In this document: positions 1,298 to 41,244 of the stretch, in pieces
How positions within the stretch are numbered: the stretch's first letter is position 1
Layout of the letters: the number at the start of each line of letters is the position of its first letter
IMG/VR virus record: IMGVR_UViG_2908567220_000009
Strand: one strand, 5' to 3'
DNA from: a virus
Lineage: Duplodnaviria; Heunggongvirae; Uroviricota; Caudoviricetes
DNA: 41,636 nucleotides
Position numbers and translations under genes: made by a program
Notes under the pieces: generated by a model
What the model saw: the letters and a program-made list of their open reading frames with translations, nothing else
Database searches by the model: none
Told to the model about the DNA's origin: nothing

Positions 1298-1316
1298 TAG
1301 TTAGTGTGGCTTTTAG

Positions 1317-1568
1317 TCAAGTAAGATGACGTCTTGGTCTTGCTGATGCCTGGCGCTCAATCCAGCGATCAATTTCTTCCAGGTTGTAAAAGCATGGACT
1401 GTTATCCCATGGCATACCGTCATGAGCGACATGCTTATATTCCCTTCCTTCCATAAACGATTTTTCCCGGGCCTTTTTTAACGTACCTTTTTTTATTCCT
1501 TTCAGCGCAATTAACTGCTCTTCGGATACCCATTTGCCGGGAGAGACAATCATGATTACTTCGCTCAT
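1317..1568 (-). CDS. xis: putative excisionase (prophage Xis-like small DNA-binding protein)
   Basis: 83-aa ORF immediately upstream of int on the same strand, 19-bp gap; small and basic. Assignment is by position and size, not by a recognised motif. Confidence 0.55.
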   Translation of the reverse strand: MSEVIMIVSPGKWVSEEQLIALKGIKKGTLKKAREKSFMEGREYKHVAHDGMPWDNSPCFYNLEEIDRWIERQASARPRRHLT

Positions 1569-1640
1569 CGATTTCTTTATCTCTTACATCAGACGAGCGC
1601 CGGTTGCAGAATACCAGTCACAACCGGCGACAGTTGAACA

Positions 1641-4049
1641 TTAAGAATCAGCCTGACTCGGGATCAGTTTTTGCCAGATAACTGAAACGTATTTTGCCTG
1701 GTAACGGGCGTCATCAAGTGCATTATGGCGCTCACCTTCGAATGGAATAGCCGTTCTGGCATCGAAGTCTATGGCTTTCCCCAGCTCAACGATTGTGCGT
1801 ACATCGCGATCGTTGTAGTAACGCCACGGGCAGGGTATCCCCTGCCGTTCGTATGAACGGCGCAAAATCGTGTTGTCGAAGTTGGCTCCATTTCCCCAAA
1901 CCTGAACAAAAAATTCACCGGAGTTTTCGTCGATAAATTCCCGCAATTGTAACAGTGCATCATCTAACGGGATTTCATCGGTCATAATGGCCGATTGCGC
2001 TTCGCGTGATTGCTTAAGCCACCATTTAATGGTGTCCCGATCAATGACTCCGCCAGCAGTTTCCAGATCGATAGTCTTACTAAATTCCGGTCCCATATCT
2101 CCGGTTTGCGGATCGAAAAATATTGCACCTATTGAGATGATCGGGGCATCAGGATTTTTTCCCATGGTTTCAAGGTCGATCATTAGATGGTCACACGTCC
2201 TGCTGGTGGATGTGATTTCGTGATGACCGTTCACCTTAATTGAGTGATCTGCCGTCTCGCCAGTTTCATTATCGCTATCGTGATGCTGATTGCCGCCAGC
2301 GTTCTCCTTGTGTGGATGTTCAGCGCCTTCCATTTCCTCCGGATCATCTTCCTGAACTTCAACCTGATACTCTTCATCGAATGTTTCCTGGTATGTTGCG
2401 TCGCCCATCACCGCGCCACAATCAGGGCAGTTGCCGCCGCCGGTCTGACCGCAGGCGGTGCAGACTTTTTCCACTTCCTGTTGCGCCACTGATTCAGGCT
2501 GTTTCGTTTCTGGCTCGTTTTGTAACGCATTTGGGCTGTTTTGTTCCGCTTTTTGGTAGTTCCGTTCCGATTCATGCTGGTTCTGGTTCACAGAATCGCG
2601 GGTCTGGATCCCCTTAACCCATTTCGGATCATTCGGGTCACTAATCCCTTCAACAAATTCACCACGTGATGCAGCAAGCAACTTATCGGCGTCAGGCTGG
2701 CTGATATTGGCTGCCTGCATAATTTTGTTTACTTCGTCAGCGGTAACTTTTATCGGCTCTGGTTGTTCTGAATCTTCAGCGGTATCTACATTTTGCGGTA
2801 AGCCCGTGTATGTGCCATTTTTTCGGGCAAAATATTCTTCTTTTGTGATTTCAGTGGCGCCAGCAGCCAGTGCCTTATCCAGACCAGAAAGTTTGTTTGC
2901 GCGACCGTATTTTTCTCCGTCCTTATCTGCGAAGAGGAAATAGAACGGCCCCTCACGCTCTACAGATGGTTCAGCTTCCGGTGCGGTTTCATTTTTTGGG
3001 ATATCAGATACCTCAGTTTCTACTGCATCAGTTTGTGTTTCTGATGACTGGAGAACATCAACAGTGCCCAGGTCTGTTTCTTCATTCTCAAACACGCCCT
3101 TTGTCGTCAGGTATTCGCAGATATATTTGTTCAGTGCTACGGGATCTTTGTGAATGTCGATCGGACGCTCACGGACAAGGCCAAAAATAGTTTGGCGGTC
3201 GTAGCGAAGGGCATCAGGCTGTTTGCGTATTGATGCCGAGATACGCTTCCAGTCTTCGCGGTCGTTGTCGATAACTTCATTTTTTGCCCAGCGATGGATG
3301 CTGCCGTCAATGTTTCCGGCATCCACATCACCAGGCCAGAGAGCGTAGGCCAGTTCGTCATCCAGTGTTTTCCATGTCTGCTTGTATTCGCGATGAATGG
3401 CAGCAATGACCGGGCTGATTTTTCCTGTTGAATTTTCAGTGTACTGTTGATTGGCTCTGGCGCGGGCGAGATCAACAACAGACGTGTATTTTCCGGTTTC
3501 CTTGCGTTCACCTTCGCGACGTTTTTTCCAGATGCGCATCTCTGCCTGAATTTCGGGCCATTTAGCACCAGGAATACATTTATGCTTAACCCACCCAATG
3601 GCGTGCAACTTAAGCTCCGGATACATGGCGTTAACTTCTGGCATTTTCATCAACGCTTCAACGATATGTCCGTTGAATGTTGCCATGTCTTCCTGCAACA
3701 ATTCCTGTGCGCTAATAACCATATCAACGGTGATGTTTTCACATGTGTCGAACTTAACCATGACAGCGTTCTGTACTTCAGGGGCCAGCTTGTCAAAAGT
3801 GACGTTCATCGGATCGGATTCAGTCTCAACCGGGACAAAAGAAGCAGACTCCTCATCCCAGCGGTTTTCCTGCATATATTCAGCATCCCATGAATCGAGG
3901 GCAGGGCGGGGTATACCAGGTTTATCCTCGCAGACAATAAATTTATAAGCGCAGTCCTGAGCAGCCGGATAATGTTCCAGGAATTGCCAGTGAAATTTTG
4001 CTCGAGCACGGCGTTCGTCGCCAGCTTCAATGGCTGTGGCTACAGCCAC
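1641..4049 (-). CDS. RecE-like (exonuclease VIII family) protein with C-terminal DEDDh (DnaQ-like) 3'-5' exonuclease domain; 5' end abuts IS1 and may be truncated
   Basis: 802-aa ORF. The middle segment (KLLAASRGEFVEGISDPNDPKWVKGIQTRDS...CTACGQTGGGNCPDCGAVMGDATYQETF) matches what I recall of Rac RecE. The C-terminus carries Exo I/II/III-like motifs (IDLETMG, VWGNGANFDNTIL, HNALDDARYQAKY). The annotated start is a GTG at 4047-4049 and the frame stays open across the IS1 boundary at 4066/4067. Confidence 0.7.
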   Translation of the reverse strand: MAVATAIEAGDERRARAKFHWQFLEHYPAAQDCAYKFIVCEDKPGIPRPALDSWDAEYMQENRWDEESASFVPVETESDPMNVTFDKLAPEVQNAVMVKFDTCENITVDMVISAQELLQEDMATFNGHIVEALMKMPEVNAMYPELKLHAIGWVKHKCIPGAKWPEIQAEMRIWKKRREGERKETGKYTSVVDLARARANQQYTENSTGKISPVIAAIHREYKQTWKTLDDELAYALWPGDVDAGNIDGSIHRWAKNEVIDNDREDWKRISASIRKQPDALRYDRQTIFGLVRERPIDIHKDPVALNKYICEYLTTKGVFENEETDLGTVDVLQSSETQTDAVETEVSDIPKNETAPEAEPSVEREGPFYFLFADKDGEKYGRANKLSGLDKALAAGATEITKEEYFARKNGTYTGLPQNVDTAEDSEQPEPIKVTADEVNKIMQAANISQPDADKLLAASRGEFVEGISDPNDPKWVKGIQTRDSVNQNQHESERNYQKAEQNSPNALQNEPETKQPESVAQQEVEKVCTACGQTGGGNCPDCGAVMGDATYQETFDEEYQVEVQEDDPEEMEGAEHPHKENAGGNQHHDSDNETGETADHSIKVNGHHEITSTSRTCDHLMIDLETMGKNPDAPIISIGAIFFDPQTGDMGPEFSKTIDLETAGGVIDRDTIKWWLKQSREAQSAIMTDEIPLDDALLQLREFIDENSGEFFVQVWGNGANFDNTILRRSYERQGIPCPWRYYNDRDVRTIVELGKAIDFDARTAIPFEGERHNALDDARYQAKYVSVIWQKLIPSQADS

Positions 4050-4121
4050 AGCGCCTTCTTCCCTTGGGTGATGCTGCCAACTTACTGATTTAGTGTATGA
4101 TGGTGTTTTTGAGGTGCTCCA

Positions 4122-4397
4122 GTGGCTTCTGTTTCTATCAGCTGTCCCTCCTGTTCAGCTACTGACGGGGTGGTGCGTAACGGCAAAAGCACCGCCGGAC
4201 ATCAGCGCTATCTCTGCTCTCACTGCCGTAAAACATGGCAACTGCAGTTCACTTACACCGCTTCTCAACCCGGTACGCACCAGAAAATCATTGATATGGC
4301 CATGAATGGCGTTGGATGCCGGGCAACTGCCCGCATTATGGGCGTTGGCCTCAACACGATTTTACGTCACTTAAAAAACTCAGGCCGCAGCCGGTAA
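4122..4397 (+). CDS. insA: IS1 InsA (transposition inhibitor / N-terminal part of InsAB')
   Basis: 91-aa [25 protein letters not shown]... with GTG start; the A6C frameshift motif TTAAAAAAC lies near 4371-4379. Confidence 0.95.
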
Positions 4398-4819
4398 CCT
4401 CGCGCATACAGCCGGGCAGTGACGTCATCGTCTGCGCGGAAATGGACGAACAGTGGGGCTATGTCGGGGCTAAATCGCGCCAGCGCTGGCTGTTTTACGC
4501 GTATGACAGTCTCCGGAAGACGGTTGTTGCGCACGTATTCGGTGAACGCACTATGGCGACGCTGGGGCGTCTTATGAGCCTGCTGTCACCCTTTGACGTG
4601 GTGATATGGATGACGGATGGCTGGCCGCTGTATGAATCCCGCCTGAAGGGAAAGCTGCACGTAATCAGCAAGCGATATACGCAGCGAATTGAGCGGCATA
4701 ACCTGAATCTGAGGCAGCACCTGGCACGGCTGGGACGGAAGTCGCTGTCGTTCTCAAAATCGGTGGAGCTGCATGACAAAGTCATCGGGCATTATCTGAA
4801 CATAAAACACTATCAATAA
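4316..4819 (+). CDS. insB: IS1 InsB frame (expressed as InsAB' transposase by programmed -1 frameshift)
   Basis: 167-aa ORF in the -1 frame relative to insA, C-terminus ...[15 protein letters not shown]. Confidence 0.9.
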
Positions 4820-4958
4820 GTTGGAGTCATTACCCTAAAGCAGTTCTCATTTCAGGTGTTATTCACTTATTCCTTCTTTGAGTCTCTCCAATTAAGTACG
4901 AAGTCGTTTCTGTTATGCAAACCATTTATTCCGAAAGGCTCAAGTTAAGGAATGTAGA

Positions 4959-6459: not shown

Positions 6460-7483
<1,024 letters not shown>

Positions 7484-7846
7484 ATTAATATTAAATCGGA
7501 TTATTTTTAGCGCTGAATGTGAAATTTAAATAAAAAGGACTCTTCCATGAGTCAAAATCCTTGAAATCTTAAGGGTAAGATAAAAGGTCATTAGACAGAA
7601 TGACACGTTTTATTAATAAATAAAGCTATTGTTTCATTCGTGTGTTTTTCTTTACAAAAGTAATCCTTGCTATGGTTGGTTAATCATGCGTTAATGGTGT
7701 TCTGGTTTGTTACAAAATTATCTGAAGCAGTCATTGTTATAATTTTATTATTTGTACCTCTTGAGATTTCCTTGTTGGTTTTTCTCTCTGATATTTTTTT
7801 TCGGACCATTCTGCCCAAGGGCTAACTTCTTCAAAAGGTAATAATG

Positions 7847-8059
7847 ATGTCTAACAAAATGACTGGTTTAGTGAAATGGTTTAACCCTGAAAAAGGTTTT
7901 GGTTTCATCACGCCGAAAGATGGTAGCAAAGATGTGTTTGTGCATTTCTCAGCTATTCAGAGCAACGATTTCAAAACGTTAACTGAGAATCAGGAAGTCG
8001 AATTTGGTATTGAGAACGGACCTAAAGGCCCTGCAGCTGTTCATGTAGTGGCACTTTGA
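7847..8059 (+). CDS. cspI: cold-shock protein, CspA family (CspI-like, 70 aa)
   Basis: [45 protein letters not shown]...; long AT-rich 5' leader (7484-7846) as in cspA-family genes; position after Rz as in Qin. Confidence 0.85.
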
Positions 8060-8266
8060 GGTAGAAAATATTACAAACCATATTCACTTTAGATGCCCGT
8101 GTTGCCATGGTTCTCAGTATAGAACATCATCTTTTGATGTTTCTGACAGAAATCCTTTCGGGGCAAAATGTATCTTTTGTAAATCAATGATGATTACATT
8201 TGATAATATTTCACAATACTTAAATGTTAGCCATCTGTCGTTAGATTTAAGAAAGTGAAAATGAAG

Positions 8267-8286
8267 GCTCCTTCGGGAGCTTTTTT
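8267..8286 (+). terminator. rho-independent terminator
   Basis: GCTCC-TTCG-GGAGC hairpin followed by TTTTTT, downstream of cspI. Confidence 0.6.
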
Positions 8287-8330
8287 GCTTAGTGTCTAGT
8301 CGATGGATACTCACATATTACGGTAACATT

Positions 8331-8561
8331 ATGAAAAAAATAATAGTTTTTTTTAACTCTGAACCAGCAATGGTAGTGCCAGTGATGACCGGAGTTAACA
8401 CCATCATGCGTGAATATCCAAATGGCGAAACAACACACCTCACTGTAATGGCTGCAGGGTTTCCATCTCTGACCGGAGATCATAAAGTCATTTATGTAGC
8501 AGCGGATCGACATGTAACTTCAGAAGAAATTCTGGAAGCAGCAATGAGACTCTTGAATTGA
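8331..8561 (+). CDS. ynfN: small Qin-type protein (YnfN-like)
   Basis: 76 aa from MKKIIVFFNSEPAMVV...; located between cspI and gnsB as in K-12 Qin. Start and symbol uncertain. Confidence 0.45.
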   Translation: MKKIIVFFNSEPAMVVPVMTGVNTIMREYPNGETTHLTVMAAGFPSLTGDHKVIYVAADRHVTSEEILEAAMRLLN

Positions 8562-8733
8562 TTTGATTCTAATGCATTGATAATAAATGATAATCATCTT
8601 TATCTGTTTGTGTGAAATTTAGACCGTCGTATGTTGATTATTGCGATGTTTCATCTTATCTTTTATACGTTTGCTCCATATAATTGACACTACTGTGTAC
8701 CAGGACAGTCATAACAGACTAAAAGAGGAAATG

Positions 8734-8907
8734 ATGAACATTGAAGAGTTAAAAACAAAAACAGAAGCAGATATTTCTGAATATATAACAAAAAAAATCA
8801 TTGAGCTTAAGAAAAAGACCGGGAAAGAAGTTACCAGTATCCAGTTTACTGCACGGGAAAAAATGACTGGTCTTGAAAGCTATGATATCAAGATTGATTT
8901 AATCTAG
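8734..8907 (+). CDS. gnsB: GnsA/GnsB family protein
   Basis: 57 aa MNIEELKTKTEADISEYITKKIIELKKKTGKEVTSIQFTAREKMTGLESYDIKIDLI, closely resembling what I recall of GnsA/GnsB. Confidence 0.8.
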   Translation: MNIEELKTKTEADISEYITKKIIELKKKTGKEVTSIQFTAREKMTGLESYDIKIDLI

Positions 8908-9202
8908 CATGTTTATAGTATTAGCATCAATTTCTCATCAGATGCTATTCAACAATACAAATTACCCATAAACCTCGTTTTTACGGGGTTTTGTTATATT
9001 TAAACATTACCGAATAGATATAAATCTCGATTGTCGATGGTATTGGTTGTGTGACAATACCTAGTCTTTCCGGTATGCCTGAAGAGAATACAAACGACAG
9101 ATTATGTAAGGGAAACGCGCTGAAACTTTCACTCTTTCATGCTGAGTGATTTGACGTTATATTTTTAGCCGCAAGTGAAGAGCAAACGAATGGAGCGACA
9201 AA

Positions 9203-9409
9203 ATGCATAAAGATCAATACACTGATGCCCCCTCCCAGGAGCAGGTTCGTGTAAAAACTATGCTTAATAGCACCATTTCGATGGGTTACCCGGATGTTGT
9301 AATTGCATGTATAGAACATCAAGTATCTCTGGAAGCATTCAGGGCAATTGAGGCCGCGTTAGTAAAGCACGATAAGAATACGAAGGATTATTCCCTGGTG
9401 GTTGACTGA
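9203..9409 (+). CDS. hypothetical Qin-type protein (YdfO-like?)
   Basis: 68-aa ORF with RBS (GGAG) upstream of the ATG; last ORF before the IS2 insertion. Identity not established. Confidence 0.4.
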
Positions 9410-9495
9410 TCACCATAACTGCTAACCATTCTGACCATTTCACAAGTGACAGAGTCAATATCGTATTCTGTCACTGTAAGGCTAATACAGTACTG

Positions 9496-9500
9496 CAATT
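9496..9500. repeat. 5-bp target-site duplication (CAATT) of IS2, left copy
   Basis: CAATT immediately outside the IS2 end at 9501; identical 5-mer at 13544-13548. Confidence 0.8.
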
Positions 9501-9511
9501 TGGATTTGCCC

Positions 9512-9826
9512 CTATATTTCCAGACATCTGTTATCACTTAACCCATTACAAGCCCGCTGCCGCAGATATTCCCGTGGCGAGCGATAACCCAGCGCACTAT
9601 GCGGATGCCATTCGTTATAATGCTCGAACGCCTCTGCAAGGTTCTTTGCTGCCGTTAACCCGTCTGGTTTGGGCATGATACTGATGTAGTCACGCTTTAT
9701 CGTTTTCACGAAGCTCTCTGCTATTCCGTTACTCTCCGGACTCCGCACCGCCGTGTTCTTCGGTTCAAGTCCCAACATCCGGGCGAACTGGCGTGTTTCA
9801 TTAGCCCGGTAGCATGAACCATTATC
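9512..9826 (-). pseudogene. insD: IS2 insD, C-terminal fragment (split by IS66-family insertion)
   Basis: Encodes ...[34 protein letters not shown]...[29 protein letters not shown], continuous with the N-terminal fragment at 12527-13129 once the insertion and one TSD copy are removed. Confidence 0.9.
9819..9826. repeat. 8-bp target-site duplication (CCATTATC) of the IS66-family element, left copy
   Basis: CCATTATC directly flanks both ends of the inserted element (9819-9826 and 12531-12538). Confidence 0.8.
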
Positions 9827-9911
9827 GTAACCGTCTCATTTAAACCGTCTTTCGCCTCCCTTTCCTGTTTCCGATACTAATGTCCATTTTCGCAGTAAAG
9901 GGACATTTAAG

Positions 9912-10562
9912 ATGAATGCACGAAAAGCGGTACTGGCAGACAATCCGGAATTGATCCTGCGTGTGCTACAGCTGAGATTTGACGAGTCACTGTCGTACCC
10001 GCGCATTTCTGCGCAGACCGGTGTCAGCAAAACCGCCATTTTTTCTCTGGTGAGGCGATTTCACCAGGTATTCACTGACTGGCCTCTTTCCGGTGAATAT
10101 TCCTGCGGGCAACTGGCCCGGGCTCTTTTCCCGGGGCGATACCCTTCAGCCCCGACCGTGACTCAGCCTGTGAAAGCAGAGAAACCCCGCCGGAACCGAT
10201 TTTCACCGGAGTTTAAATGGAGACTGGTTCAGCAAACTCTTTTACCCGGTGCCTGTGTCGCACAAATAGCTCGAGAGAATGGAATTAACGATAACCTGCT
10301 CTTTAACTGGCGGCATCTCTGGCGTAACGGTGGCCTGCAACCGCCCGGCGAACATGAAACATCGCTACTTCCCGTGACGTTAACTCCGGAGCCGGATAAT
10401 AAAATCCCGGCACCAGTGCAGATACCTGAACAGATAAATACACTGCCAGACAGTCTGTGCTGCGAGCTGGTTCTGCCGGCCGGAACTCTCAGGCTGAAAG
10501 GTGAACTGACACCGGCGTTATTACAGACACTTATCCGCGAAATGAAAGGGAGCAGCCACTGA
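9912..10562 (+). CDS. IS66-family accessory protein (orfA/TnpA)
   Basis: 216-aa ORF, first of three co-oriented ORFs inside the element; its stop overlaps the orfB start (ATGA). Confidence 0.75.
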   Translation: MNARKAVLADNPELILRVLQLRFDESLSYPRISAQTGVSKTAIFSLVRRFHQVFTDWPLSGEYSCGQLARALFPGRYPSAPTVTQPVKAEKPRRNRFSPEFKWRLVQQTLLPGACVAQIARENGINDNLLFNWRHLWRNGGLQPPGEHETSLLPVTLTPEPDNKIPAPVQIPEQINTLPDSLCCELVLPAGTLRLKGELTPALLQTLIREMKGSSH

Positions 10563-10909
10563 TGATATCTCTCCCTGCCGGTTCGCGTATCTGGCTGGTT
10601 GCCGGTATCACCGATATGCGAAATGGCTTTAACGGCCTGGCCTCAAAAGTTCAGAACGTCCTGAAGGATGACCCGTTCTCCGGGCATCTGTTCATCTTCC
10701 GCGGACGCCGGGGTGACCAGATAAAAGTGCTGTGGGCTGACAGTGACGGACTGTGCCTCTTCACCAAACGCCTGGAGCGGGGCCGCTTCGTCTGGCCGGT
10801 CACCCGCGATGGAAAGGTTCACCTTACTCCGGCTCAGTTGTCCATGCTTCTCGAAGGCATCGACTGGAAGCACCCGAAACGAACGGAACGCGCTGGCATC
10901 CGCATATAA
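10562..10909 (+). CDS. IS66-family Orf2 (TnpB-like)
   Basis: 115 aa MISLPAGSRIWLVAGITDMRNGFNGLASKV...; size and the conserved N-terminal motif fit IS66 Orf2. Confidence 0.85.
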   Translation: MISLPAGSRIWLVAGITDMRNGFNGLASKVQNVLKDDPFSGHLFIFRGRRGDQIKVLWADSDGLCLFTKRLERGRFVWPVTRDGKVHLTPAQLSMLLEGIDWKHPKRTERAGIRI

Positions 10910-10928
10910 CCCGTTGTAAAGTGAGGAT

Positions 10929-12500
10929 ATGGACACCTCACTTGCTCATGAGAATGCCCGCCTGCGGGCACTGTTGCAGACGCAACAGGACACCATCCGC
11001 CAGATGGCGAAATACAACCGCCTGCTCTCACAGCGGGTGGCGGCTTATGCTTCCGAAATCAACCGGCTGAAGGCGCTGGTTGCGAAACTGCAGCGCATGC
11101 AGTTCGGTAAAAGCTCAGAAAAACTTCGCGCTAAAACCGAACGGCAGATACAGGAAGCCCAGGAGCGAATCAGCGCACTTCAGGAAGAAATGGCGGAAAC
11201 GCTGGATGAGCAATATGACCCGGTACTGCCATCCGCCCTGCGCCAGTCTTCAGCCCGTAAGCCGTTACCGGCCTCACTTCCCCGTGAAACCCGGGTCATC
11301 CGGCCGGAAGAGGAATGCTGCCCGGCCTGTGGTGGTGACCTCAGTCCTCTGGGGTGTGATGTGTCAGAGCAACTGGAGCTTATCAGCAGCGCTTTTAAGG
11401 TTATCGAAACACAACGTCCGAAACTGGCCTGTTGCCGGTGCGACCATATCGTGCAGGCACCAGTACCTTCAAAACCCATTGCACGCAGTTATGCCGGAGC
11501 GGGGCTTCTGGCTCATATCGTCACCGGGAAGTATGCAGACCATCTGCCGTTATACCGCCAGTCAGAAATATACCTTCGTCAGGGCGTGGAACTGAGCCGC
11601 GCCACGCTGGGGCGCTGGACCGGTGCCGTTGCTGAACTGCTGGAGCCGCTGTATGACGTGCTGCGCCAGTATGTGCTGATGCCCGGTAAAGTCCATGCGG
11701 ATGATATCCCCGTTCCGGTCCAGGAGCCGGGCAGTGGTAAAACAAGAACTGCCCGGCTGTGGGTCTATGTCCGTGATGACCGTAACGCCGGTTCACAGAT
11801 GCCCCCGGCGGTCTGGTTCGCGTACAGCCCGGACCGGAAAGGTATCCATCCACAGAATCACCTGGCCGGTTACAGCGGTGTGCTTCAGGCAGATGCTTAC
11901 GGTGGTTACCGGGCGTTATACGAATCCGGCAGAATAACGGAAGCCGCGTGTATGGCCCATGCCCGGAGAAAAATCCACGATGTGCATGCAAGAGTGCCAA
12001 CCGACATCACCACGGAAGCCCTGCAGCGTATCGGTGAACTGTATGTCATCGAGGCAGAAGTCCGGGGATGTTCAGCAGAACAGCGTCTGGCAGCAAGAAA
12101 AGCCAGAGCGGCTCCACTGATGCAGTCACTGTATGACTGGATACAGGAACAGATGAAAACACTGTCGCGTCACTCGGATACGGCAAAAGCGTTCGCATAC
12201 CTGCTGAAACAGTGGGAGGCCCTGAACGTGTACTGCAGTAATGGCTGGGTGGAAATCGACAACAACATCGCAGAGAACGCCTTACGGGGAGTGGCCGTAG
12301 GCCGGAAAAACTGGCTCTTCGCGGGTTCCGACAGCGGTGGCGAACATGCGGCGGTGTTGTACTCGCTGATCGGCACATGCCGTCTGAACAATGTGGAACC
12401 AGAAAAATGGCTGCGTTACGTCATTGAGCATATCCAGGATTGGCCGGCAAACCGGGTACGCGATCTGTTGCCCTGGAAAGTTGATCTGACCTCTCAGTAA
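10929..12500 (+). CDS. IS66-family transposase (orfC/TnpC)
   Basis: 523 aa with an N-terminal leucine-zipper-like region, CxxC...CxxC zinc-finger motifs (CPACGG...CCRCDH) and a DDE-type core. Confidence 0.9.
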
Positions 12501-12526
12501 ATATCAATACGGTTCTGGCGAGCCGC

Positions 12527-13129
12527 TTACCCATTATCCGTCAGCCACTCCACTGGAGACGACGGAAGATCGTTGCCGAAGCGGCGTTCCACCGCTCCCA
12601 GCATGACGTCCTGTACTGTTTCACTGTTGAAGCCGCCGGTAGTGACCGCCCAGTGCAGTGCCTCACGATCACAGCAGTCCAGCGCGAACGTGACACGCAG
12701 TCTCTCTCCGTTATCACAGCAGAACTCGAACCCGTCAGAGCACCATCGCTGATTGCTTTCTTTCACGGCCACTCTGCCTGTATGTGCCCGTTTCGATGGC
12801 GGTACAGCAGGTTTTCGCTCAAGCAACAGCGCATTCTGGCGCATGATCCGGTAAACACGTTTGGCATTGATCGCAGGCATACCATCAAGTTCTGCCTGTC
12901 TGCGAAGCAGCGCCCATACCCGACGATAACCATACGTGGGCAGCTCTCCGATAACATGGTGTATACGGAGAAGCACATCCGTATCATCAGTGTGACGACT
13001 GCGGCGGCCATCCATCCAGTCATCGGTTCGTCTGAGAATGACGTGCAACTGCGCACGCGACACCCGGAGACAACGGCTGACTAAGCTTACTCCCCATCCC
13101 CGGGCAATAAGGGCGCGTGCGCTATCCAC
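12527..13129 (-). pseudogene. insD: IS2 insD, N-terminal fragment
   Basis: [34 protein letters not shown]...VEWLTDNG, ending in a stop created at the IS66 junction. Confidence 0.9.
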
Positions 13130-13452
13130 TTTTTTGCCCGTCCATATTCAACGGCTTCTTTGAGGAGTTCATTTTCCATCGTTTTCTTGCCGAGCAGGCG
13201 CTGGAGTTCTTTAATCTGCTTCATGGCGGCAGCAAGTTCAGAGGCAGGAACAACCTGTTCTCCGGCGGCGACAGCAGTAAGACTTCCTTCCTGGTATTGC
13301 TTACGCCAGAGAAATAACTGGCTGGCTGCTACACCATGTTGCCGGGCAACGAGGGAGACCGTCATCCCCGGTTCAAAGCTCTGCTGAACAATTGCGATCT
13401 TTTCCTGTGTGGTACGCCGTCTGCGTTTCTCCGGCCCTAAGACATCAATCAT
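13087..13452 (-). CDS. insC: IS2 InsC (OrfA, HTH protein)
   Basis: 121 aa from [41 protein letters not shown]...; the ORF track extends it upstream by an alternative start. Confidence 0.9.
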
Positions 13453-13543
13453 CTGTTCTCCAATGACTAGTCTAAAAACTAGTATTAAGACTATCACTTA
13501 AATAAGTGATATTGGTTGTCTGGAGATTCAGGGGGCCAGTCTA

Positions 13544-13548
13544 CAATT
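13544..13548. repeat. 5-bp target-site duplication (CAATT) of IS2, right copy
   Basis: Identical to 9496-9500. Confidence 0.8.
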
Positions 13549-13823
13549 CAACTACAGCAATGCCTCGTATTTAGGTGAATTTACAATATCGTCCAGTTCG
13601 GATGCCGGCTGCATTTCTGAAGATAAGGCATTTCGGTTCGCGTATTTTCCCCTCATGCTCGTCAGTCCTGCGCGTAGTAAGAAACAGGACACTCACACTA
13701 ATTTGTGTGGGCATGCTGTGATGTCCTTCTGAATTATCCCCATGCCATTATGTAAAGCTCTGTTTCAGATGCTCGTCACGGTTGTCAGGCTGTCGGGTCC
13801 TCCCAGTGGGGGTCCCTGCCACG

Positions 13824-13835
13824 GGGCGGGAGCGT
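13824..13835 (+). other. candidate cosN (cohesive-end site) of the prophage
   Basis: ACG-GGGCGGGAGCGT-CGCGG versus lambda ACG-GGGCGGCGACCT-CGCGG: identical flanks and 8/12 core matches. It lies 195 bp upstream of the small-terminase start; in lambda cosN is 190 bp upstream of Nu1. Confidence 0.55.
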
Positions 13836-14018
13836 CGCGGAAAAAGGCTAGTTTTTGCATTTCCATGGCGGCGGCAGCATGTTTGGTAATTTATTGATAA
13901 TTAAAGTTATTTATCTTTTCACCTGTACAATATTTTTTTCTCCCTGTCATTAGACCAGTTTACAATTAATTGAAATATATAAATAAACATGATTTTCACC
14001 TGCCAGATGGAGTTGCTT

Positions 14019-14546
14019 ATGTCAAATGTGAGCGGGATCGGTGATGCTTATTACTGGAGTGTTTTTAAAATCGCTGAGGCCTTTGGGCTTCACCGGGACA
14101 CAGTAAAAAAACGGCTTCTCGCGGCCAACACTCCTGTGGCTGCGACTGTCAGGGGGAACCCCGTTTACGCCCTGCAGCATGTCGGGCCAGCCCTGTTTAG
14201 TGTGAAGCATGAGGCAGCAGACTCTGTTCATGATCCATCCCGTATGGAGCCGAAAGAGAGAAAGGACTGGTACCAGTCTGAAAATGAAAGGATCAAGCTG
14301 GAAAAGGAGCAGCGAAAACTCATCCCCGTTGATGAAGTAGTCATCGTCTATTCGTCCATGAGAAAGGCTGTCGTCCAGGTTCTGGAGACAATTCCGGATG
14401 TTCTTGAACGCGATTGCGCCCTGACTCCTCAGGCCGTCGGCGTTGTACAGCAGGCAATTGATGACCTGCGATACACTCTTCAGGAAAAATCCTACGAGGC
14501 TTGTGCTGCTGAATTAATTCCTGATGAGGAAGGAGAGAGTCTCTAG
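14019..14546 (+). CDS. nohA: terminase small subunit (Nu1 homolog)
   Basis: MSNVSGIGDAYYWSVFKIAEAFGLHRDTVKKRLLAANTPVA... has an N-terminal HTH and sits directly before the terminase large subunit. Matches what I recall of K-12 NohA/NohQ. Confidence 0.85.
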   Translation: MSNVSGIGDAYYWSVFKIAEAFGLHRDTVKKRLLAANTPVAATVRGNPVYALQHVGPALFSVKHEAADSVHDPSRMEPKERKDWYQSENERIKLEKEQRKLIPVDEVVIVYSSMRKAVVQVLETIPDVLERDCALTPQAVGVVQQAIDDLRYTLQEKSYEACAAELIPDEEGESL

Positions 14547-14554
14547 GAGGAATA

Positions 14555-16653
14555 ATGGGTTTTTCATCAGCCCGAAATTTGGGAAGGGACATATCGGCAG
14601 GATTTTCCCCACCACGTCGCATGCCGATTTCGGAGGCTGTTAAAAAATTCATGCGTGTTCCCAAGGGGGCTGGTAACTCGGTGCCAGGGATCCTGAACTG
14701 ACACCCTACATCATTGAGCCCATGAACTGCCTGGCATCGCGTGAATACGATGCGGTGATTTTTGTTGGTCCTGCGCGAACAGGGAAGACCATTGGTCTGA
14801 TCGATGGATGGATTGTCTATACCATCGTTTGCGATCCTTCGGACATGCTCGTTGTGCAGATGACCGAAGATAAGGCCCGCGAGCATTCTAAAAAGCGCCT
14901 CGACAGAACGTTCAGAAGCAGTGCGGCGGTAAAGAAAAGAATGAGTCCACGTCGTAACGACAATAATGTCCATGATAAGACGTTCAGGGATGGCTCGTTC
15001 CTTAAAATTGGTTGGCCCTCGGTCAACATTATGTCGTCGTCGGATTACCGGTTTGTCGCCTTAACCGATTACGACCGTTTTCCGGAGAATATCGACAGCG
15101 AGGGTGATGGTTTCTCCCTGGCCTCAAAACGTACCACCACATTTATGTCCGCCGGGATGACTCTGGTGGAGAGCTCGCCGGGACGTGACATCTGCGACAG
15201 CAAATGGCGACGTAAGTCGCCTCATGAAGCGCCACCGACGACTGGTATTCTTTCCCTTTACAATCGTGGTGACCGCCGCCGCTGGTACTGGTCATGTCCG
15301 CACTGCGGTGAATATTTTCAGCCAGCCATGGATGCCATGACCGGCTACCGTAATGAACCGGATCCCTTTAAAGCCAGTGAGGCGGCGTATCTACTTTGCC
15401 CGCACTGCAGCGGCATTATCACTGCGGAGAAAAAGCGTGAGCTCAATAGTGCAGGAGTCTGGTTGCGTGAAGGTCAGGTCATTGATCGTAACGGCAACGT
15501 TTCCGGTGAACCGCGCCGCTCCCGTATCGCCAGTTTCTGGATGGAAGGGCCAGCTGCTGCGTATCAGACCTGGGCGCAACTGGTTTACAAATTACTGACT
15601 GCAGAACAGGAGTATGAAGCGACAGGAAGCGAAGAAACACTCAGGGCGGTTATCAACACCGACTGGGGATTGCCTTATCTTCCTCGTGCCAGCATGGAGC
15701 AACGAAAAAGTGAACTGCTTGAGCAGCGGGCAGAGCCAGTTCCTTCCCGCAGTGTGCCGGATGGCATTAATTTCCTTGTGGCGACAGTGGATGTGCAGGC
15801 GGGACGTCATCGCCGTTTTGTGGTTCAGGTAACGGGCTATGGCAGTCGTGGCGAACGCTGGATTATTGATCGTTACAACATCACGCAGTCATTGCGCAGT
15901 GACTGCGACGGGGAGAGCCAGCGAATTGATCCGGCCAGCTATCCGGAAGACTGGGATGTCCTGCTGACGGATGTTTTTCATAAAAGCTGGCCGCTGGCCT
16001 CCGATCCTTCTCAACAAATGCGACTGATGGCAATGGCGGTGGACTCCGGCGGTGAAGACGGGGTCACTGATAATGCCTATAAATTCTGGCGTCGTTGCCG
16101 TCGTGATGGCCTTGGTAAACGTATTTACCTGTTTAAGGGTGACAGCATCCGGCGCGCAAAACTGATCAGCCGTACATTCCCTGATAACACCGGACGAACG
16201 GGCCGCCGGGCGCAGGCCGCAGGTGATGTGCCGCTCTGGCTTCTTCAGACGGATGCCCTGAAAGACCGGGTGAATAACGCGTTATGGCGTGACTCGCCAG
16301 GTCCAGGCTATGTGCATTTCCCTGACTGGCTGGGGAGCTGGTTTTACGACGAACTGACGTATGAAGAGCGAAGCAGTGACGGGAAATGGAGTAAGCCGGG
16401 TCGCGGTGCCAACGAAGCTTTTGACCTGATGGTGTATGCCGAGGCTCTGGTCATTCTGCATGGATACGAAAAGATCCGCTGGCCGGATGCACCGGAGTGG
16501 GCGAGCCGGGAAACCTGGCTGGAGTGTGTCCAGGACAGTACCGAACCGTCATCCTCACCGGAACCGGTATCCACGCCTGTTAAAAAACAAAAACGGAAGA
16601 AAACAGTAACTGACGATGTTAACCCCTGGCTGACTTCCGGAGGATGGTTATGA
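14555..16653 (+). pseudogene. terminase large subunit (lambda gpA family) interrupted by a frameshift near 14681-14700
   Basis: ATG at 14555 with a strong RBS (AGGAGG) encodes 48 aa ending at a TGA (14699-14701). The remaining 643-aa frame (annotated from 14722, open from 14677) is displaced by one nucleotide. Homology to lambda gpA is continuous across the break (VPKGAGNS / RDPELTPYIIEPMNCLAS versus lambda LPKESAYQEGRWETLPFQRAIMNAMGS). Confidence 0.8.
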
Positions 16654-16862
16654 ACCAGAATGATATCGAAGCCATGATTCAGCGTTATACGGAAGCTGAA
16701 ATGGCGGTGCTGGACGGAAAATCCGTCACTTTTAATGGTCAGCAGATGACCATGGAAAACTTATCTGAGATCCGGCAGGGGCGGCAGGAGTGGGAGCGCC
16801 GCCTTGCGGCTCTGATTACACGACGACGGGGGCATCCCGGGTACCGGCTGGCGAGGTTCTGA
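16650..16862 (+). CDS. head-tail joining protein (lambda gpW-like)
   Basis: About 70 aa with C-terminus ...RRRGHPGYRL resembling lambda W ...RRRGPAGFYV; located between terminase and portal. Confidence 0.7.
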   Translation: MNQNDIEAMIQRYTEAEMAVLDGKSVTFNGQQMTMENLSEIRQGRQEWERRLAALITRRRGHPGYRLARF

Positions 16863-18370
16863 TGGCAATTCTTGATGATGTGATTGGCGTTTTTTCACCA
16901 GGATGGAAAGCGGCAAGGCTGCGTTCCCGTGCGGTGATCCAGGCTTATGAGGCCGTAAAAACGACGCGGACACACAAAGCCCGACGGGAGAACCGAACTG
17001 CCGACCAGTTAAGCCAGTACGGGGCCGTGTCGTTACGTGAGCAGGCCCGTTACCTTGATAACAACCACGATCTGGTCATTGGTGTATTTGACAAGCTGGA
17101 AGAACGGGTGGTGGGGAAAAACGGGATTATTGTCGAGCCACATCCGGTATTACGCAATGGGGCCATTGCCCGTGATCTGGCTGCGGAGATACGCACCCGA
17201 TGGAGTGAATGGTCTGTCAGTCCGGAAGTCACCGGGCAGTTTACCCGTCCGATGCTGGAACGTCTGATGCTGCGTACCTGGCTGCGCGATGGTGAGGTGT
17301 TTGCCCAGATGGTTTCCGGGCGCATAAACAGCCTGACGCCTTCTGCCGGTGTTCATTTCTGGCTGGAGGCGCTCGAGCCAGACTTTATTCCCATGACCAG
17401 TGATGAGAGCAACAGGCTGAATCAGGGCGTGTTTGTTGATGACTGGGGGCGTCCCGAAAAATATCTGGTGTATAAAAGCCGTCCCGTATCCGGACGGCAG
17501 ATGGAAACCAAAGAAGTGGATGCAGAGCGAATGCTGCATCTTAAATTTGTTCGCCGTCTGCACCAGATGCGCGGGACGTCTTTATTGTCCGGTGTGCTGA
17601 TCCGCCTCAGTGCTCTGAAAGAGTATGAAGATTCTGAGCTGACTGCAGCAAGGATCGCCGCTGCTCTGGGGATGTACATCCGGAAAGGCGACGGGCAGAG
17701 CTATGAAGCGGATGGTAATGGCAGCAAGGATAAGGAACGCGAGCTTACCATTCAGCCAGGCATTATTTACGATGATCTGAAACCCGGCGAAGAAATCGGA
17801 ATGGTGAAGTCGGATCGCCCCAATCCTAACCTTGAAACTTTTCGTAATGGTCAGTTGCGTGCCGTGGCGGCGGGCAGTCGTCTGAGTTTTTCCAGTACAG
17901 CGCGCAACTATAACGGCACTTACAGCGCCCAGCGTCAGGAGCTGGTTGAATCCACTGATGGCTACCTGATCCTGCAGGACTGGTTTATTGGTGCCGTCAC
18001 CCGCCCGATGTATCGTGCCTGGCTGAAACAGGCTGTGGCATCCGGTGTTATCAGGCTACCCCGCGATCTTGACCGTTCTTCACTGTATACCGCGGTGTAT
18101 TCCGGACCGGTGATGCCGTGGATTGACCCTGTTAAGGAGGCTGAGGCCTGGAAAATCCAGATTCGTGGTGGAGCGGCGACAGAATCAGACTGGGTACGTG
18201 CTGGTGGTCGTAATCCGGATGATGTCAAACGTCGGCGCAAGGCCGAAATTGATGAAAACCGCAAGCTGGATCTGGTATTTGATACCGATCCGGCCAGTGA
18301 TAAAGGAGGCAGCAGTGCCGCAACGAAACGACAGGAGCCGCAGCACACCGACGACCAGTCCGAAGAATAA
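16862..18370 (+). CDS. portal protein (lambda gpB family)
   Basis: 502 aa from MAILDDVIGVFSPGWK...; position after W and before the protease. The ORF track starts it earlier at an alternative codon. Confidence 0.85.
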   Translation: MAILDDVIGVFSPGWKAARLRSRAVIQAYEAVKTTRTHKARRENRTADQLSQYGAVSLREQARYLDNNHDLVIGVFDKLEERVVGKNGIIVEPHPVLRNGAIARDLAAEIRTRWSEWSVSPEVTGQFTRPMLERLMLRTWLRDGEVFAQMVSGRINSLTPSAGVHFWLEALEPDFIPMTSDESNRLNQGVFVDDWGRPEKYLVYKSRPVSGRQMETKEVDAERMLHLKFVRRLHQMRGTSLLSGVLIRLSALKEYEDSELTAARIAAALGMYIRKGDGQSYEADGNGSKDKERELTIQPGIIYDDLKPGEEIGMVKSDRPNPNLETFRNGQLRAVAAGSRLSFSSTARNYNGTYSAQRQELVESTDGYLILQDWFIGAVTRPMYRAWLKQAVASGVIRLPRDLDRSSLYTAVYSGPVMPWIDPVKEAEAWKIQIRGGAATESDWVRAGGRNPDDVKRRRKAEIDENRKLDLVFDTDPASDKGGSSAATKRQEPQHTDDQSEE

Positions 18371-18383
18371 TTCCTGGTTCAGG

Positions 18384-20342
18384 ATGCAGGCTGGTCACCA
18401 GAGTGACGCGGATATTTATATTTATGACGAGATTGGTTTCTGGGGTGTTACAGCGAAGCAGTTTATCAGTGATCTGAATGCACTGGGCGATATCACCCAC
18501 ATTAATCTCCATATTAATTCACCGGGTGGCGATGTCTTTGAAGGCATCGCCATTTTTAATGCGCTGAAAACACATGGTGCGTCCATTACCGTTTATGTCG
18601 ACGGTGTGGCGGCGTCAATGGCGTCGGTCATTGCGATGGTGGGAAACCCGGTCATTATGCCGGAAAACACCTTCATGATGATTCATAAACCATTTGGCTT
18701 TACGGGCGGTGATGCGGAGGACATGCGCACCTATGCCGACCTGCTCGATAAAGTTGAGGCGGTTCTGTTACCCGCTTATGCACAGAAAACCGGGAAAACC
18801 ACCGATGAAATTGCTGCCATGCTGGCGGATGAGACCTGGATGTCCGGTGCCGAATGTCTGGCACATGGATTTGCTGATCAGGTGACACCAGCCGTTAAGG
18901 CAATGGCATGTATTCAGTCAAAACGTACAGAGGAATTTAAAAAGATGCCGGAATCCATTCGAAATATGATTACTCCGCCACGCAACAGTGCTCCACGCGT
19001 ACAGGATGATGGACCTGCAGCCTCCCGGACGCCAGTGCAGGCAGCAGCACCCGTGGTGGATGAAAACAGCATCCGTGCGCAGGTCCTGGCAGAGCAAAAA
19101 GCGCGTGTAAACGGTATTAATGATCTGTTTGCCATGTTTGGCGGGCGTTATCAGTCGTTGCAGGCTCAGTGTCTTGCCGATCCTGAATGTTCGCTGGAGC
19201 AGGCCCGCGAAAAGCTGTTGAACGAGATGGGGCGCGAGTCCACGCCATCCAATAAAAATACCCCGGCTCATATTTATGCCGGTAACGGTAATTTTGTGGG
19301 GGACGGGATCCGCCAGGCGCTGATGGCGCGCGCCGGGTTTGAAAAAACCGAACGTGATAATGTCTACAACGGGATGACCCTGCGTGAATATGCCCGTATG
19401 TCACTGACTGAACGTGGTATTGGTGTTTCCGGTTATAACCCGATGCAGATGGTCGGTGCGGCGTTCACACACAGTACGTCTGACTTCGGTAATATTCTGC
19501 TGGATGTTGCGAACAAAGCCATTCTGCAGGGCTGGGAAGATGCCCCTGAAACCTATGAACAGTGGACGCGGAAAGGTCAGTTGTCTAATTTTAAAATTGC
19601 CCATCGTGTGGGTATGGGGGGCTTCAGTGCTCTGCGTCAGGTGCGTGAAGGGGCAGAATATAAATACGTCACCACCGGAGATAAACAGGCCACTATTGCA
19701 CTGGCGACCTATGGCGAGCTGTTCAGTATCACCCGTCAGGCCATTATCAATGATGATCTGAATATGCTGACCGATGTCCCGATGAAGCTGGGCCGTGCGG
19801 CGAAATCCACTATTGCCGATCTGGTTTATGCCATTCTGACGTCTAACCCGAAAATCTCCACAGATAATGTAAGTCTGTTCGATAAAGCGAAACATGCAAA
19901 CGTACTGGAGAGCGCGGCAATGGACGTGGCATCGCTGGATAAAGCCCGCCAGTTGATGCGCGTTCAGAAAGAGGGGGAGCGTCATCTGAATATTCGTCCT
20001 GCGTTCGTACTGGTACCGACGGCGATGGAGTCTGTTGCTAACCAGGTCATTCGCTCCTCAAGTGTCAAGGGGGCTGACATTAACGCCGGTATTATTAACC
20101 CGGTGAAAGATTTTGCGACCGTTATTGCAGAGCCTCGTCTTGATGATAACAGCCAGACCACCTTCTACCTGGCTGCGTCAAAAGGCTCCGATACGATTGA
20201 AGTGGCTTATCTCAACGGTGTGGATACGCCATATATTGATCAGATGGAGGGCTTCAGTGTGGATGGCGTGACAACGAAAGTGCGTATTGACGCCGGTGTC
20301 GCGCCAGTTGATCACCGCGGTCTGGTGAAATGTACGGCGTAA
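18384..20342 (+). CDS. prohead protease (ClpP/S49-like) fused to major capsid protein
   Basis: 653 aa from MQAGHQ.... The N-terminal ~200 aa are ClpP-like (HINSPGGDVFEGIAIFNALK..., GVAASMASVIAMVG); the C-terminal ~330 aa are capsid-like. A strong terminator follows. Confidence 0.8.
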   Translation: MQAGHQSDADIYIYDEIGFWGVTAKQFISDLNALGDITHINLHINSPGGDVFEGIAIFNALKTHGASITVYVDGVAASMASVIAMVGNPVIMPENTFMMIHKPFGFTGGDAEDMRTYADLLDKVEAVLLPAYAQKTGKTTDEIAAMLADETWMSGAECLAHGFADQVTPAVKAMACIQSKRTEEFKKMPESIRNMITPPRNSAPRVQDDGPAASRTPVQAAAPVVDENSIRAQVLAEQKARVNGINDLFAMFGGRYQSLQAQCLADPECSLEQAREKLLNEMGRESTPSNKNTPAHIYAGNGNFVGDGIRQALMARAGFEKTERDNVYNGMTLREYARMSLTERGIGVSGYNPMQMVGAAFTHSTSDFGNILLDVANKAILQGWEDAPETYEQWTRKGQLSNFKIAHRVGMGGFSALRQVREGAEYKYVTTGDKQATIALATYGELFSITRQAIINDDLNMLTDVPMKLGRAAKSTIADLVYAILTSNPKISTDNVSLFDKAKHANVLESAAMDVASLDKARQLMRVQKEGERHLNIRPAFVLVPTAMESVANQVIRSSSVKGADINAGIINPVKDFATVIAEPRLDDNSQTTFYLAASKGSDTIEVAYLNGVDTPYIDQMEGFSVDGVTTKVRIDAGVAPVDHRGLVKCTA

Positions 20343-38176: not shown

Positions 38177-38687
38177 TGCGATATTGTATGTCTGATTCAG
38201 GATATGTTGACTTATACATCGGTTTTGTCCGGGTTATTGGATATGCCAATCCCTAATTTTATTAGGGCATGACTAAAAATGCTGAATATGATAAGGAGAG
38301 AAGTGATTATCAGTATGCTGTTCATATAGCCTCGAATTAGTAATGTGTTATATATGATATAGTTGACAATTTTTATCTTGGGTGTTCTTAAAGTTCGTAG
38401 ATAAACATTGTCGTTTCAGGTATACAGGAATGCTAACAGGTGGCAGCAAAAATCAGGCGGTTTATGGCGCAAGCTGAAGCGGCAACTGCAAACACTATTT
38501 TATGCAGAGACTCTACACGGATTGGGTTTAAAAGTATACATAGATAACAGTTTTTATCTGAAAAAGAAAAATATCAAGGTGATATAGCCTATATGCCTTT
38601 GATGCGGAGGAATGAATGTGATGGGAGTGATGGGTGATGCTGCCAACTTACTGATTTAGTGTATGATGGTGTTTTTGAGGTGCTCCA

Positions 38688-38963
38688 GTGGCTTCTGTTT
38701 CTATCAGCTGTCCCTCCTGTTCAGCTACTGACGGGGTGGTGCGTAACGGCAAAAGCACCGCCGGACATCAGCGCTATCTCTGCTCTCACTGCCGTAAAAC
38801 ATGGCAACTGCAGTTCACTTACACCGCTTCTCAACCCGGTACGCACCAGAAAATCATTGATATGGCCATGAATGGCGTTGGATGCCGGGCAACTGCCCGC
38901 ATTATGGGCGTTGGCCTCAACACGATTTTACGTCACTTAAAAAACTCAGGCCGCAGTCGGTAA
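38688..38963 (+). CDS. insA: IS1 InsA
   Basis: Identical protein to the copy A InsA. Confidence 0.95.
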
Positions 38964-39385: not shown

Positions 39386-39400
39386 GTTGGAGTCATTACC

Positions 39401-41062: not shown

Positions 41063-41244
41063 AGGTGTTTTCTCCTTTCTGATTTACAGTCGAAGCCCAC
41101 GTAACGGGCGCAATATAAATACTCCTGTCGAGTGAAATATTTTTTGTTTTTGATCAAGCTCACATCTTTTTTGATGCATGCATGAGCCATAAGGCGGGCG
41201 AAAGACTCTCACCCCGGATGGGATGAGAGGAAATGAATTACTCG

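What the first reader, a model, noticed from the sequence alone, without database searches (positions are those of the whole stretch)
9496..13548. Nested insertion: a 2704-bp IS66-family element with 8-bp TSD sits inside IS2, which itself has a 5-bp TSD
IS2 termini are at 9501 and 13543, flanked by CAATT on both sides. Inside insD, a three-ORF IS66-family element (9827-12530) is bracketed by the direct repeat CCATTATC. Removing the element and one repeat copy restores an uninterrupted insD and exactly 1331 bp of IS2. Both events are therefore simple transpositions whose order is recorded in the sequence. The 2704-bp length and 8-bp duplication match my recollection of IS679, but the name is unverified.
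Basis: seen in the sequence. Interest (0 to 1): 0.5.

Follow-up and report, generated by a model that had tools for sequence, protein, structure and literature searches.

The report
IS679-type element nested inside IS2

Summary
IS2 (minus strand) spans 9501-13543 between CAATT repeats. A 2704-bp three-gene IS66-family element spans 9827-12530 between CCATTATC repeats. Removing it plus one repeat gives a 1331-bp IS2 with an open 301-aa insD. The uninterrupted target, with CAATT once, exists in hundreds of E. coli genomes, in a Qin-like lambdoid prophage between the lysis/cold-shock genes and the small terminase gene. The inner element is 100% identical to many other copies, which sit at different sites with their own 8-bp duplications. 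It is therefore a recently active IS. It is IS679-type: 2704 bp, 97.9% identical to a copy whose transposase NCBI names "IS679 family". The ISfinder reference could not be consulted. Window 6527-19129 is identical to the public E. coli CV839-15 chromosome (CP024978.1). One nuance: the nesting shows that IS679 entered IS2, not that IS2 was already at this locus. This is a known kind of structure and of low interest. One side observation is worth a follow-up. The same 8-bp IS2 target has been hit by IS66-family elements in four distinguishable lineages, involving three element types and both orientations. The weak target consensus of the element does not explain this.

The parts
9496..9500 (.). 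left copy of the 5-bp target duplication CAATT made by IS2
   Evidence: the empty site has CAATT once
9501..9826 (-). IS2 segment carrying the right inverted repeat (IRR, starting TGGATTTGCCCC at 9501) and the 3' third of insD
9512..9778 (-). C-terminal remnant ORF of InsD (88 aa, rve_3 region)
9819..9826 (.). left copy of the 8-bp duplication CCATTATC made by the IS66-family element (IS2 sequence)
9827..12530 (+). intact 2704-bp IS66-family element of IS679 type
   Evidence: 100% identical copies; same termini with 8-bp duplications at 16 other sites
9827..9851 (+). IRL of the IS66-family element (GTAACCGTCTCATTTAAACCGTCTT); 17 of 25 positions match the IRR
9912..10562 (+). tnpA (216 aa; HTH_Tnp_1)
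10562..10909 (+). tnpB (115 aa; TnpB_IS66); its ATG overlaps the TGA of tnpA by one base, in the -1 frame
10929..12500 (+). tnpC (523 aa; LZ_Tnp_IS66, zf-IS66, DDE_Tnp_IS66, DDE_Tnp_IS66_C), 19 bp after tnpB
12506..12530 (+). IRR of the IS66-family element (reverse complement GTAAGCGGCTCGCCAGAACCGTATT)
12531..12538 (.). right copy of the 8-bp duplication CCATTATC
12531..13543 (-). IS2 segment carrying the left inverted repeat (IRL, ending ...GGGGGCCAGTCTA at 13543), insC and the 5' two-thirds of insD
12527..13129 (-). truncated insD (200 aa, ending ...TDNG); the TAA stop is supplied by the GTAA tip of the IS66-family IRR
13087..13452 (-). insC / orfA of IS2 (121 aa, HTH_Tnp_1)
13129..13135 (-). 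A6G slippery motif (AAAAAAG on the minus strand) for the -1 frameshift that fuses InsC to InsD
   Evidence: near-identical copies are annotated 'programmed frameshift'
13544..13548 (.). right copy of the 5-bp duplication CAATT

Best explanation
Two successive, ordinary transposition events explain the structure.

1. An IS2 copy (IS3 family, 1331 bp) inserted into the non-coding stretch between a 68-aa ORF downstream of gnsB and the DUF1441 small-terminase gene of a Qin-like lambdoid prophage. It duplicated CAATT. IS2 moves by a copy-out/paste-in route through a figure-of-eight and a minicircle.
2. An active 2704-bp IS66-family element of IS679 type (tnpA-tnpB-tnpC, DDE transposase TnpC) then inserted into insD of that IS2, in the opposite gene orientation. 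It duplicated CCATTATC.

The insertion cuts InsD after G200, two codons past the second catalytic Asp (D198 in TDNG). The GTAA tip of the incoming element supplies an immediate stop codon. The IS2 transposase therefore lacks the catalytic Glu (E234) and this IS2 copy can no longer move on its own. Its two ends are intact. The inner element keeps all three ORFs and both ends and should still be mobile.

Shown: the anatomy, both duplications, the empty site, and identity to other mobile copies. Inferred: the order at this locus, loss of IS2 activity, and continued activity of the inner copy.
For: - Coordinates, repeats and in-silico excision to 1331 bp with insD restored.
- The reconstructed IS2 differs at only 2 of 1331 positions from intact copies annotated 'IS3-like element IS2 family transposase, programmed frameshift'.
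- Pfam: HTH_Tnp_1 for InsC; HTH_21, rve and rve_3 for the restored InsD; HTH_Tnp_1, TnpB_IS66 and DDE_Tnp_IS66 (plus zf, LZ and C-terminal domains) for the three inner ORFs.
- The empty target site is present as one uninterrupted piece in 522 complete E. coli genomes, at up to 99.9% identity.
- The inner element is 100% identical over 2704 bp to at least 25 plasmid copies. Sixteen other chromosomal places hold copies with the same termini and perfect 8-bp duplications, 10 with 0-1 mismatches and 6 with 13. Copies also lie on two plasmids of the same strain.
- D132, D198 and E234 spacing in InsD, with truncation at residue 200.
- IS2 mechanism: PMC3299598. The 8-bp duplication of IS66: PMC6778807.
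Against: No genome was found with IS2 at the CAATT site and no IS679 inside it, so the intermediate state is not documented. Activity or inactivity of either element is inferred from sequence only. The exact ISfinder name could not be checked.
Confidence: 0.93

Rival explanations
1. Reverse order at this locus. IS679 inserted into an IS2 copy elsewhere, and the defective 4043-bp IS2::IS679 composite was then transposed into the prophage by IS2 transposase made by another IS2 copy.
For: Both IS2 ends are intact and the 5-bp duplication is perfect. That pattern would also result from transposition of the composite. No IS2-only intermediate at CAATT was found.
Against: No second copy of the composite exists in 5,426 complete E. 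coli genomes or 72,556 plasmids. Intact IS2 copies have inserted independently at -19, +3 and +36 bp in the same intergenic stretch, so plain IS2 readily lands here. IS3-family transposases act preferentially in cis (my own knowledge, not tested here).
Confidence: 0.05
2. Assembly artefact: repeats were wrongly joined, so the nesting is not physically real.
For: IS elements are classic sites of misassembly. The deposited genome is annotated only generically ('Uncharacterized protein YuaH/y4hO').
Against: A misjoin would not create perfect 8-bp and 5-bp duplications or an exactly restorable 1331-bp IS2. Equivalent complete nested structures exist in independent assemblies: GF60, CP024239.1, ET745 and J6.
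Confidence: 0.02

Closest known systems
IS2 (IS3 family, IS2 group)
   Same: Length of 1331 bp after excision, the terminal sequences, insC/insD with an A6G frameshift site, a 5-bp duplication, and 1329 of 1331 identity to annotated intact IS2 copies.
   Different: It is interrupted in insD. The 4-nt loop of the palindrome next to the IRL reads AAAT on the plus strand (13500-13503), where six other copies read ATTT.
IS679 (IS66 family; Han et al. 2001, J Bacteriol 183:4296, cited but not readable here)
   Same: 2704 bp and an 8-bp duplication. tnpA-tnpB-tnpC layout with a TGATG overlap of tnpA and tnpB and a 19-bp gap before tnpC. The reference values are from my memory of that paper. The element is 97.9% identical, without gaps, to a copy whose TnpC PGAP names 'IS679 family'.
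   Different: There are 56 substitutions against that copy, concentrated in mid-tnpC. The IRL tip is GTAACCGTCTC rather than GTAAGCGCATC. The true ISfinder reference was not compared.
ISCro1 (IS66 family, Citrobacter rodentium / E. coli)
   Same: TnpC is 97% identical. Nucleotide identity is 94% from position 419 onward. The first 24 bp of the IRL are almost the same.
   Different: ISCro1-type copies are 2699 bp, have a 225-aa TnpA and a left ~420 bp with no detectable similarity.
Other IS66-family-in-IS2 nests (GF60 IS2::ISCro1; CP024239.1 IS2::ISEc43-type; ET745; J6)
   Same: The architecture is the same. GF60 and CP024239.1 use the very same 8-bp IS2 target.
   Different: They involve different IS66-family members, sometimes the opposite orientation, different genomic loci for the IS2, and sometimes further nesting (IS100, IS21 family).

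Membership tests
IS2 (IS3 family) | Length of about 1331 bp with the IS2 terminal inverted repeats | tested here: met
   Excision gives 1331 bp. The ends TGGATTTGCCCC... and ...GGGGGCCAGTCTA are identical to those of intact annotated IS2 copies.
IS2 (IS3 family) | Two overlapping ORFs (insC, insD) joined by a -1 frameshift at A6G; HTH plus DDE (rve) domains | tested here: met
   AAAAAAG lies at 13129-13135 on the minus strand. Pfam finds HTH_Tnp_1 in InsC and HTH_21, rve and rve_3 in the restored InsD.
IS2 (IS3 family) | 5-bp target duplication | tested here: met
   CAATT flanks both ends, and the empty site has it once.
IS2 (IS3 family) | Near-identity to reference IS2 | tested here: met
   2 mismatches in 1331 against copies that PGAP annotates as IS2.
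IS66 family | Three genes tnpA, tnpB, tnpC with the family domains | tested here: met
   PF01527, PF05717 and PF03050 plus PF13005, PF13007 and PF13817, all far above the curated cut-offs.
IS66 family | tnpB start overlapping the tnpA stop in the -1 frame; tnpC about 20 bp downstream | tested here: met
   TGA at 10560-10562 and ATG at 10562-10564; the gap before tnpC is 10910-10928. The criterion itself is from my knowledge of Han et al. 2001.
IS66 family | Imperfect terminal inverted repeats beginning GTAA, and an 8-bp target duplication | tested here: met
   GTAACCG... and GTAAGCG... match at 17 of 25 positions. CCATTATC is duplicated here, and there are 16 other sites with 8-bp duplications. 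The 8-bp figure for IS66 is from PMC6778807.
IS679 (named element) | At least 95% nucleotide identity to the ISfinder IS679 reference (pB171) | not testable with these tools
   The reference record and paper are not held. The proxy is 97.9% identity to a copy whose TnpC PGAP labels 'IS679 family'.
IS679 (named element) | Length of 2704 bp | tested here: met
   9827-12530 is 2704 bp. The reference value is from my own memory.

The most novel reading that the evidence does not exclude
The 8-bp sequence GATAATGG in IS2 insD (codons D198-N-G200) may be a true preferred landing site for IS66-family transposases. It has been used in four distinguishable lineages:

- an IS679-type element here;
- a 95.8%-identical variant in the p510016_84 plasmid family;
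- an ISCro1-type element in strain GF60;
- an ISEc43-type element, in the opposite orientation, in CP024239.1.

A further hit lies 22 bp away in ET745. The weak target consensus derived from 17 other IS679-type sites ranks this position only 608th of 2624. Some feature other than the local 8-mer would then direct targeting, such as DNA structure or an IS2-bound protein. Retention bias is an alternative.
Probability: 0.5. Interest if true: 0.35.

Novelty: already known. Interest (0 to 1): 0.13.

Why it matters
As found, it matters little. It is a correct, textbook reading of a nested IS insertion in a publicly deposited E. coli genome, and it is useful mainly for annotation. The deposited record calls the IS66-family genes 'YuaH/y4hO'. 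The structure inactivates one IS2 copy, adds 4,048 bp to a lambdoid prophage just upstream of its cos/terminase region, and places an apparently active IS679-type copy there. The recurrent use of one IS2 position by several IS66-family elements, if it is a real hotspot, would be a handle on the target choice of a family whose transposition mechanism is still poorly characterised.

Tried and rejected
- **Reference for the name.** Fetching pB171 (NC_002142, AB024946) and Han et al. 2001 (PMC95320) to verify the name failed: none is held.
- **Exact-junction scans.** Scans of genome contigs (twice) and metagenome contigs found nothing.
- **Looking for this locus in RefSeq.** I looked for the same nested structure with its flanks in 5,426 complete RefSeq E. 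coli genomes and found none. The source was instead found through an exact look-up of the truncated 200-aa InsD.
- **Short contigs carrying that 200-aa product.** They end 1-3 nt past the site and continue as intact IS2 (T, TT, TTC). They are cut by contig ends, not by insertions, and I did not count them.
- **Target-preference test.** A PWM built from 17 other target sites does not explain the recurrent IS2 hit.
- **Apparent shared flank of ISEc43-type IRLs.** BLAST rows suggested that ISEc43-type IRLs elsewhere are preceded by IS2-like bases. On reading, these were different duplications (GTATAATG, TGATATTG, GATCGTGT, AATAATGC) with only an AT-rich core in common.
- **Literature.** A search for an IS66-in-IS2 hotspot returned nothing relevant.
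Full report
**Observation.** Reading 9400-13700 and scripted checks confirm every coordinate in the finding.
- IS2 lies on the minus strand from 9501 (TGGATTTGCCCC..., right end) to 13543 (...GGGGGCCAGTCTA, left end), flanked by CAATT at 9496-9500 and 13544-13548.
- Inside it, a 2704-bp element runs from 9827 (GTAACCGTCTC...) to 12530 (...GAGCCGCTTAC), flanked by CCATTATC at 9819-9826 and 12531-12538.
- Its ends are imperfect inverted repeats that match at 17 of 25 positions.
- It carries three plus-strand ORFs of 216, 115 and 523 aa.
- Deleting 9827-12538 leaves exactly 1331 bp and an uninterrupted 301-aa InsD (...[15 protein letters not shown]...).

**What the two elements are.**
- Pfam assigns HTH_Tnp_1 to InsC and HTH_21/rve/rve_3 to the restored InsD.
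- Pfam assigns HTH_Tnp_1, TnpB_IS66 and LZ/zf/DDE_Tnp_IS66/IS66_C to the three inner ORFs. All scores are far above the curated thresholds.
- The reconstructed IS2 differs at 2 of 1331 positions from intact copies that PGAP annotates as 'IS3-like element IS2 family transposase, programmed frameshift'.
- Those two differences are a flip of the 4-nt loop of a palindrome beside the left end.
- The A6G slippery site is present at 13129-13135 on the minus strand.
- In the inner element, the tnpB ATG overlaps the tnpA TGA by one base (10560-10564), and tnpC starts 19 bp after tnpB. This is the layout I recall from Han et al. 2001 for IS679 and most IS66-family members. That paper is cited but is not held.

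**Evidence that both are real transposition products.**
- A 1600-bp in-silico 'empty site' matches 522 complete E. coli genomes as one piece, at up to 99.9% identity.
- In strain SC516 the sequence reads GTACTG-CAATT-CAACTAC, with CAATT once.
- The inner element is 100% identical over all 2704 bp to at least 25 plasmid copies.
- Exact look-ups of TnpC and TnpA returned 20 chromosomal places. Sixteen of these hold copies with the same termini and their own perfect 8-bp duplications, such as CCTAATTG, TGCCGTTC, GAATAAAG, CTATAAGC, TCACAATT, CTTGATAT and CTTCATTG. Ten of the sixteen have 0-1 mismatches and six have 13.
- The termini and the 8-bp duplication are therefore independently confirmed, and the element has been active recently.

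**Context and source.**
- Flanking genes map to a Qin-like lambdoid prophage at the ydfJ locus.
- On the left are essD-ydfR-rrrQ-rzpQ-cspI-ynfN-gnsB and a 68-aa ORF. On the right are DUF1441 (a small-terminase homologue), large terminase, portal, capsid, tail and tail-fibre genes.
- The IS2 lies in non-coding DNA about 300 bp upstream of a lambda-cosN-like sequence (ACGGGGCGGGAGCGTCGCGG at 13849-13868).
- An exact look-up of the truncated 200-aa InsD found E. coli CV839-15 chromosome CP024978.1, which is 100% identical to window 6527-19129.
- CV839-15 is an isolate from a diarrhoeic piglet in Harbin. Two of its plasmids carry identical copies of the inner element.

**Consequences (inferred).**
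- InsD has D132, D198 (in TDNG) and E234, the DD(35)E spacing.
- The insertion falls right after G200, and the GTAA tip of the incoming element creates GGG-TAA. OrfAB is therefore truncated before the catalytic Glu.
- This IS2 copy should be non-autonomous, although both of its ends are intact. The inner element is complete.
- Together the two elements and their duplications add 4,048 bp to the prophage.

**Order of events.**
- The nesting shows that IS679 entered IS2 DNA.
- Whether IS2 was already in the prophage is not strictly recorded. A composite moved in trans would leave the same 5-bp duplication.
- I found no second copy of the composite and no IS2-only intermediate at CAATT.
- Intact IS2 copies have inserted independently at -19 (TCAGG, EC261), +3 (TTCAA, S1-IND-02-A) and +36 bp (TTTAC, J6) in the same stretch, all in the same orientation.
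- Plain IS2 landing here first is therefore the parsimonious reading.
- Lewis et al. 2012 (PMC3299598) describe the two-step IS2 pathway and link IS2 targets to intrinsic curvature. That would fit a regional hot zone.

**Name.**
- The element is 97.9% identical (56 substitutions, no gaps) to a copy of the same 2704-bp length in strain 12A, whose TnpC PGAP calls 'IS66-like element IS679 family transposase'.
- ISCro1-type copies are 2699 bp, have a 225-aa TnpA and a left ~420 bp with no detectable similarity.
- TnpC alone does not discriminate: 98% versus 97%.
- 'IS679-type, probably an isoform' is justified. The ISfinder reference could not be compared.

**Side finding.** The junction ...GCATGAACCATTATC|GTAA... 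recurs in other contexts.
- In the p510016_84 plasmid family it joins a 95.8%-identical variant element to a 97%-identical IS2 variant. There the right side is rearranged and IS100 is nested in tnpB.
- In the GF60 chromosome it joins an ISCro1-type left end, and both junctions are present.
- In CP024239.1 the same 8-mer is duplicated around a 2541-bp ISEc43-type element in the opposite orientation, with both IS2 halves present.
- ET745 has a hit 22 bp away, with duplication CTGGAGAC.
- IS66-family elements sit elsewhere in IS2 in J6 and p720632_86.
- My searches were anchored on this site, so the relative frequency of other positions is under-sampled.
- Four distinguishable events at one phosphodiester are still hard to ascribe to chance.
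- A PWM from 17 other target sites is weak, with at most 0.5 bit per position (roughly C-T-W-N-A). It ranks the IS2 site 608th of 2624.
- No literature on this was found. I leave it unexplained. The candidates are a structural target feature, retention bias or gene conversion.

**Verdict.** The finding is right and ordinary. It is a known type of nested IS structure made of two known elements, in a genome already in GenBank.

Noticed in passing
window 9819-9826 / 12531-12538; L004:6320-6340; L018:4822-4860; L033:6592-6607 and 9133-9148; L001:1841-1848: The same 8-bp IS2 target (GATAATGG in IS2 orientation) carries IS66-family insertions in four distinguishable lineages, involving IS679-type, ISCro1-type and ISEc43-type elements in both orientations. 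A fifth insertion lies 22 bp away. A weak consensus built from 17 other sites does not predict this position.
   Followed up: partly
window 9477-9500 and 13544-13590; L021:3037-3046; L005:6059-6068; L006:6092-6101: The intergenic stretch upstream of the prophage small-terminase gene is an IS2 hot zone. There are four independent insertions within 55 bp (duplications TCAGG, CAATT, TTCAA, TTTAC), all in the same orientation, in different strains.
   Followed up: partly
window 13500-13503: The loop of the palindrome ATCACTT-AAAT-AAGTGAT next to the IS2 IRL reads AAAT here, where all six other IS2 copies compared read ATTT. This loop flip is the only difference from the two closest intact copies.
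   Followed up: no
window 4067-4834, 38633-39400, 41244-41636: The window holds three IS1 copies: two complete 768-bp copies in direct orientation, and a third, inverted, cut by the window end. The second lies at the prophage/ydfJ-ydfI boundary.
   Followed up: partly
window 13849-13868: The sequence ACGGGGCGGGAGCGTCGCGG resembles the lambda cosN region (recalled as ACGGGGCGGCGACCTCGCGG). It lies about 300 bp right of the IS2 and about 140 bp upstream of the first in-frame start codon of the DUF1441 ORF. The 4-kb insert therefore sits close to, but not in, the putative packaging site.
   Followed up: no
L008, L013, L015, L028, L029 (element at 499-3202 or 2116-4819): Several copies of the inner element (0-12 mismatches) lack a duplication and show swapped flanks (GAATATCA / AATTATTG / CTTAATAG). 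This is the signature of inversion or recombination between IS copies.
   Followed up: no
window 6527-19129: This stretch is 100% identical to the E. coli CV839-15 chromosome CP024978.1 (piglet diarrhoea isolate, Harbin). That strain's plasmids label the genes of the identical IS66-family copies only 'YuaH/y4hO/hypothetical'.
   Followed up: yes
L046:3500-6056; L043:3499-3507: ISEc43-type elements also interrupt other IS3-family transposase genes. One sits in IS3 itself, with duplication AATAATGC. IS66-family elements nested in IS3-family elements may be generally common.
   Followed up: no
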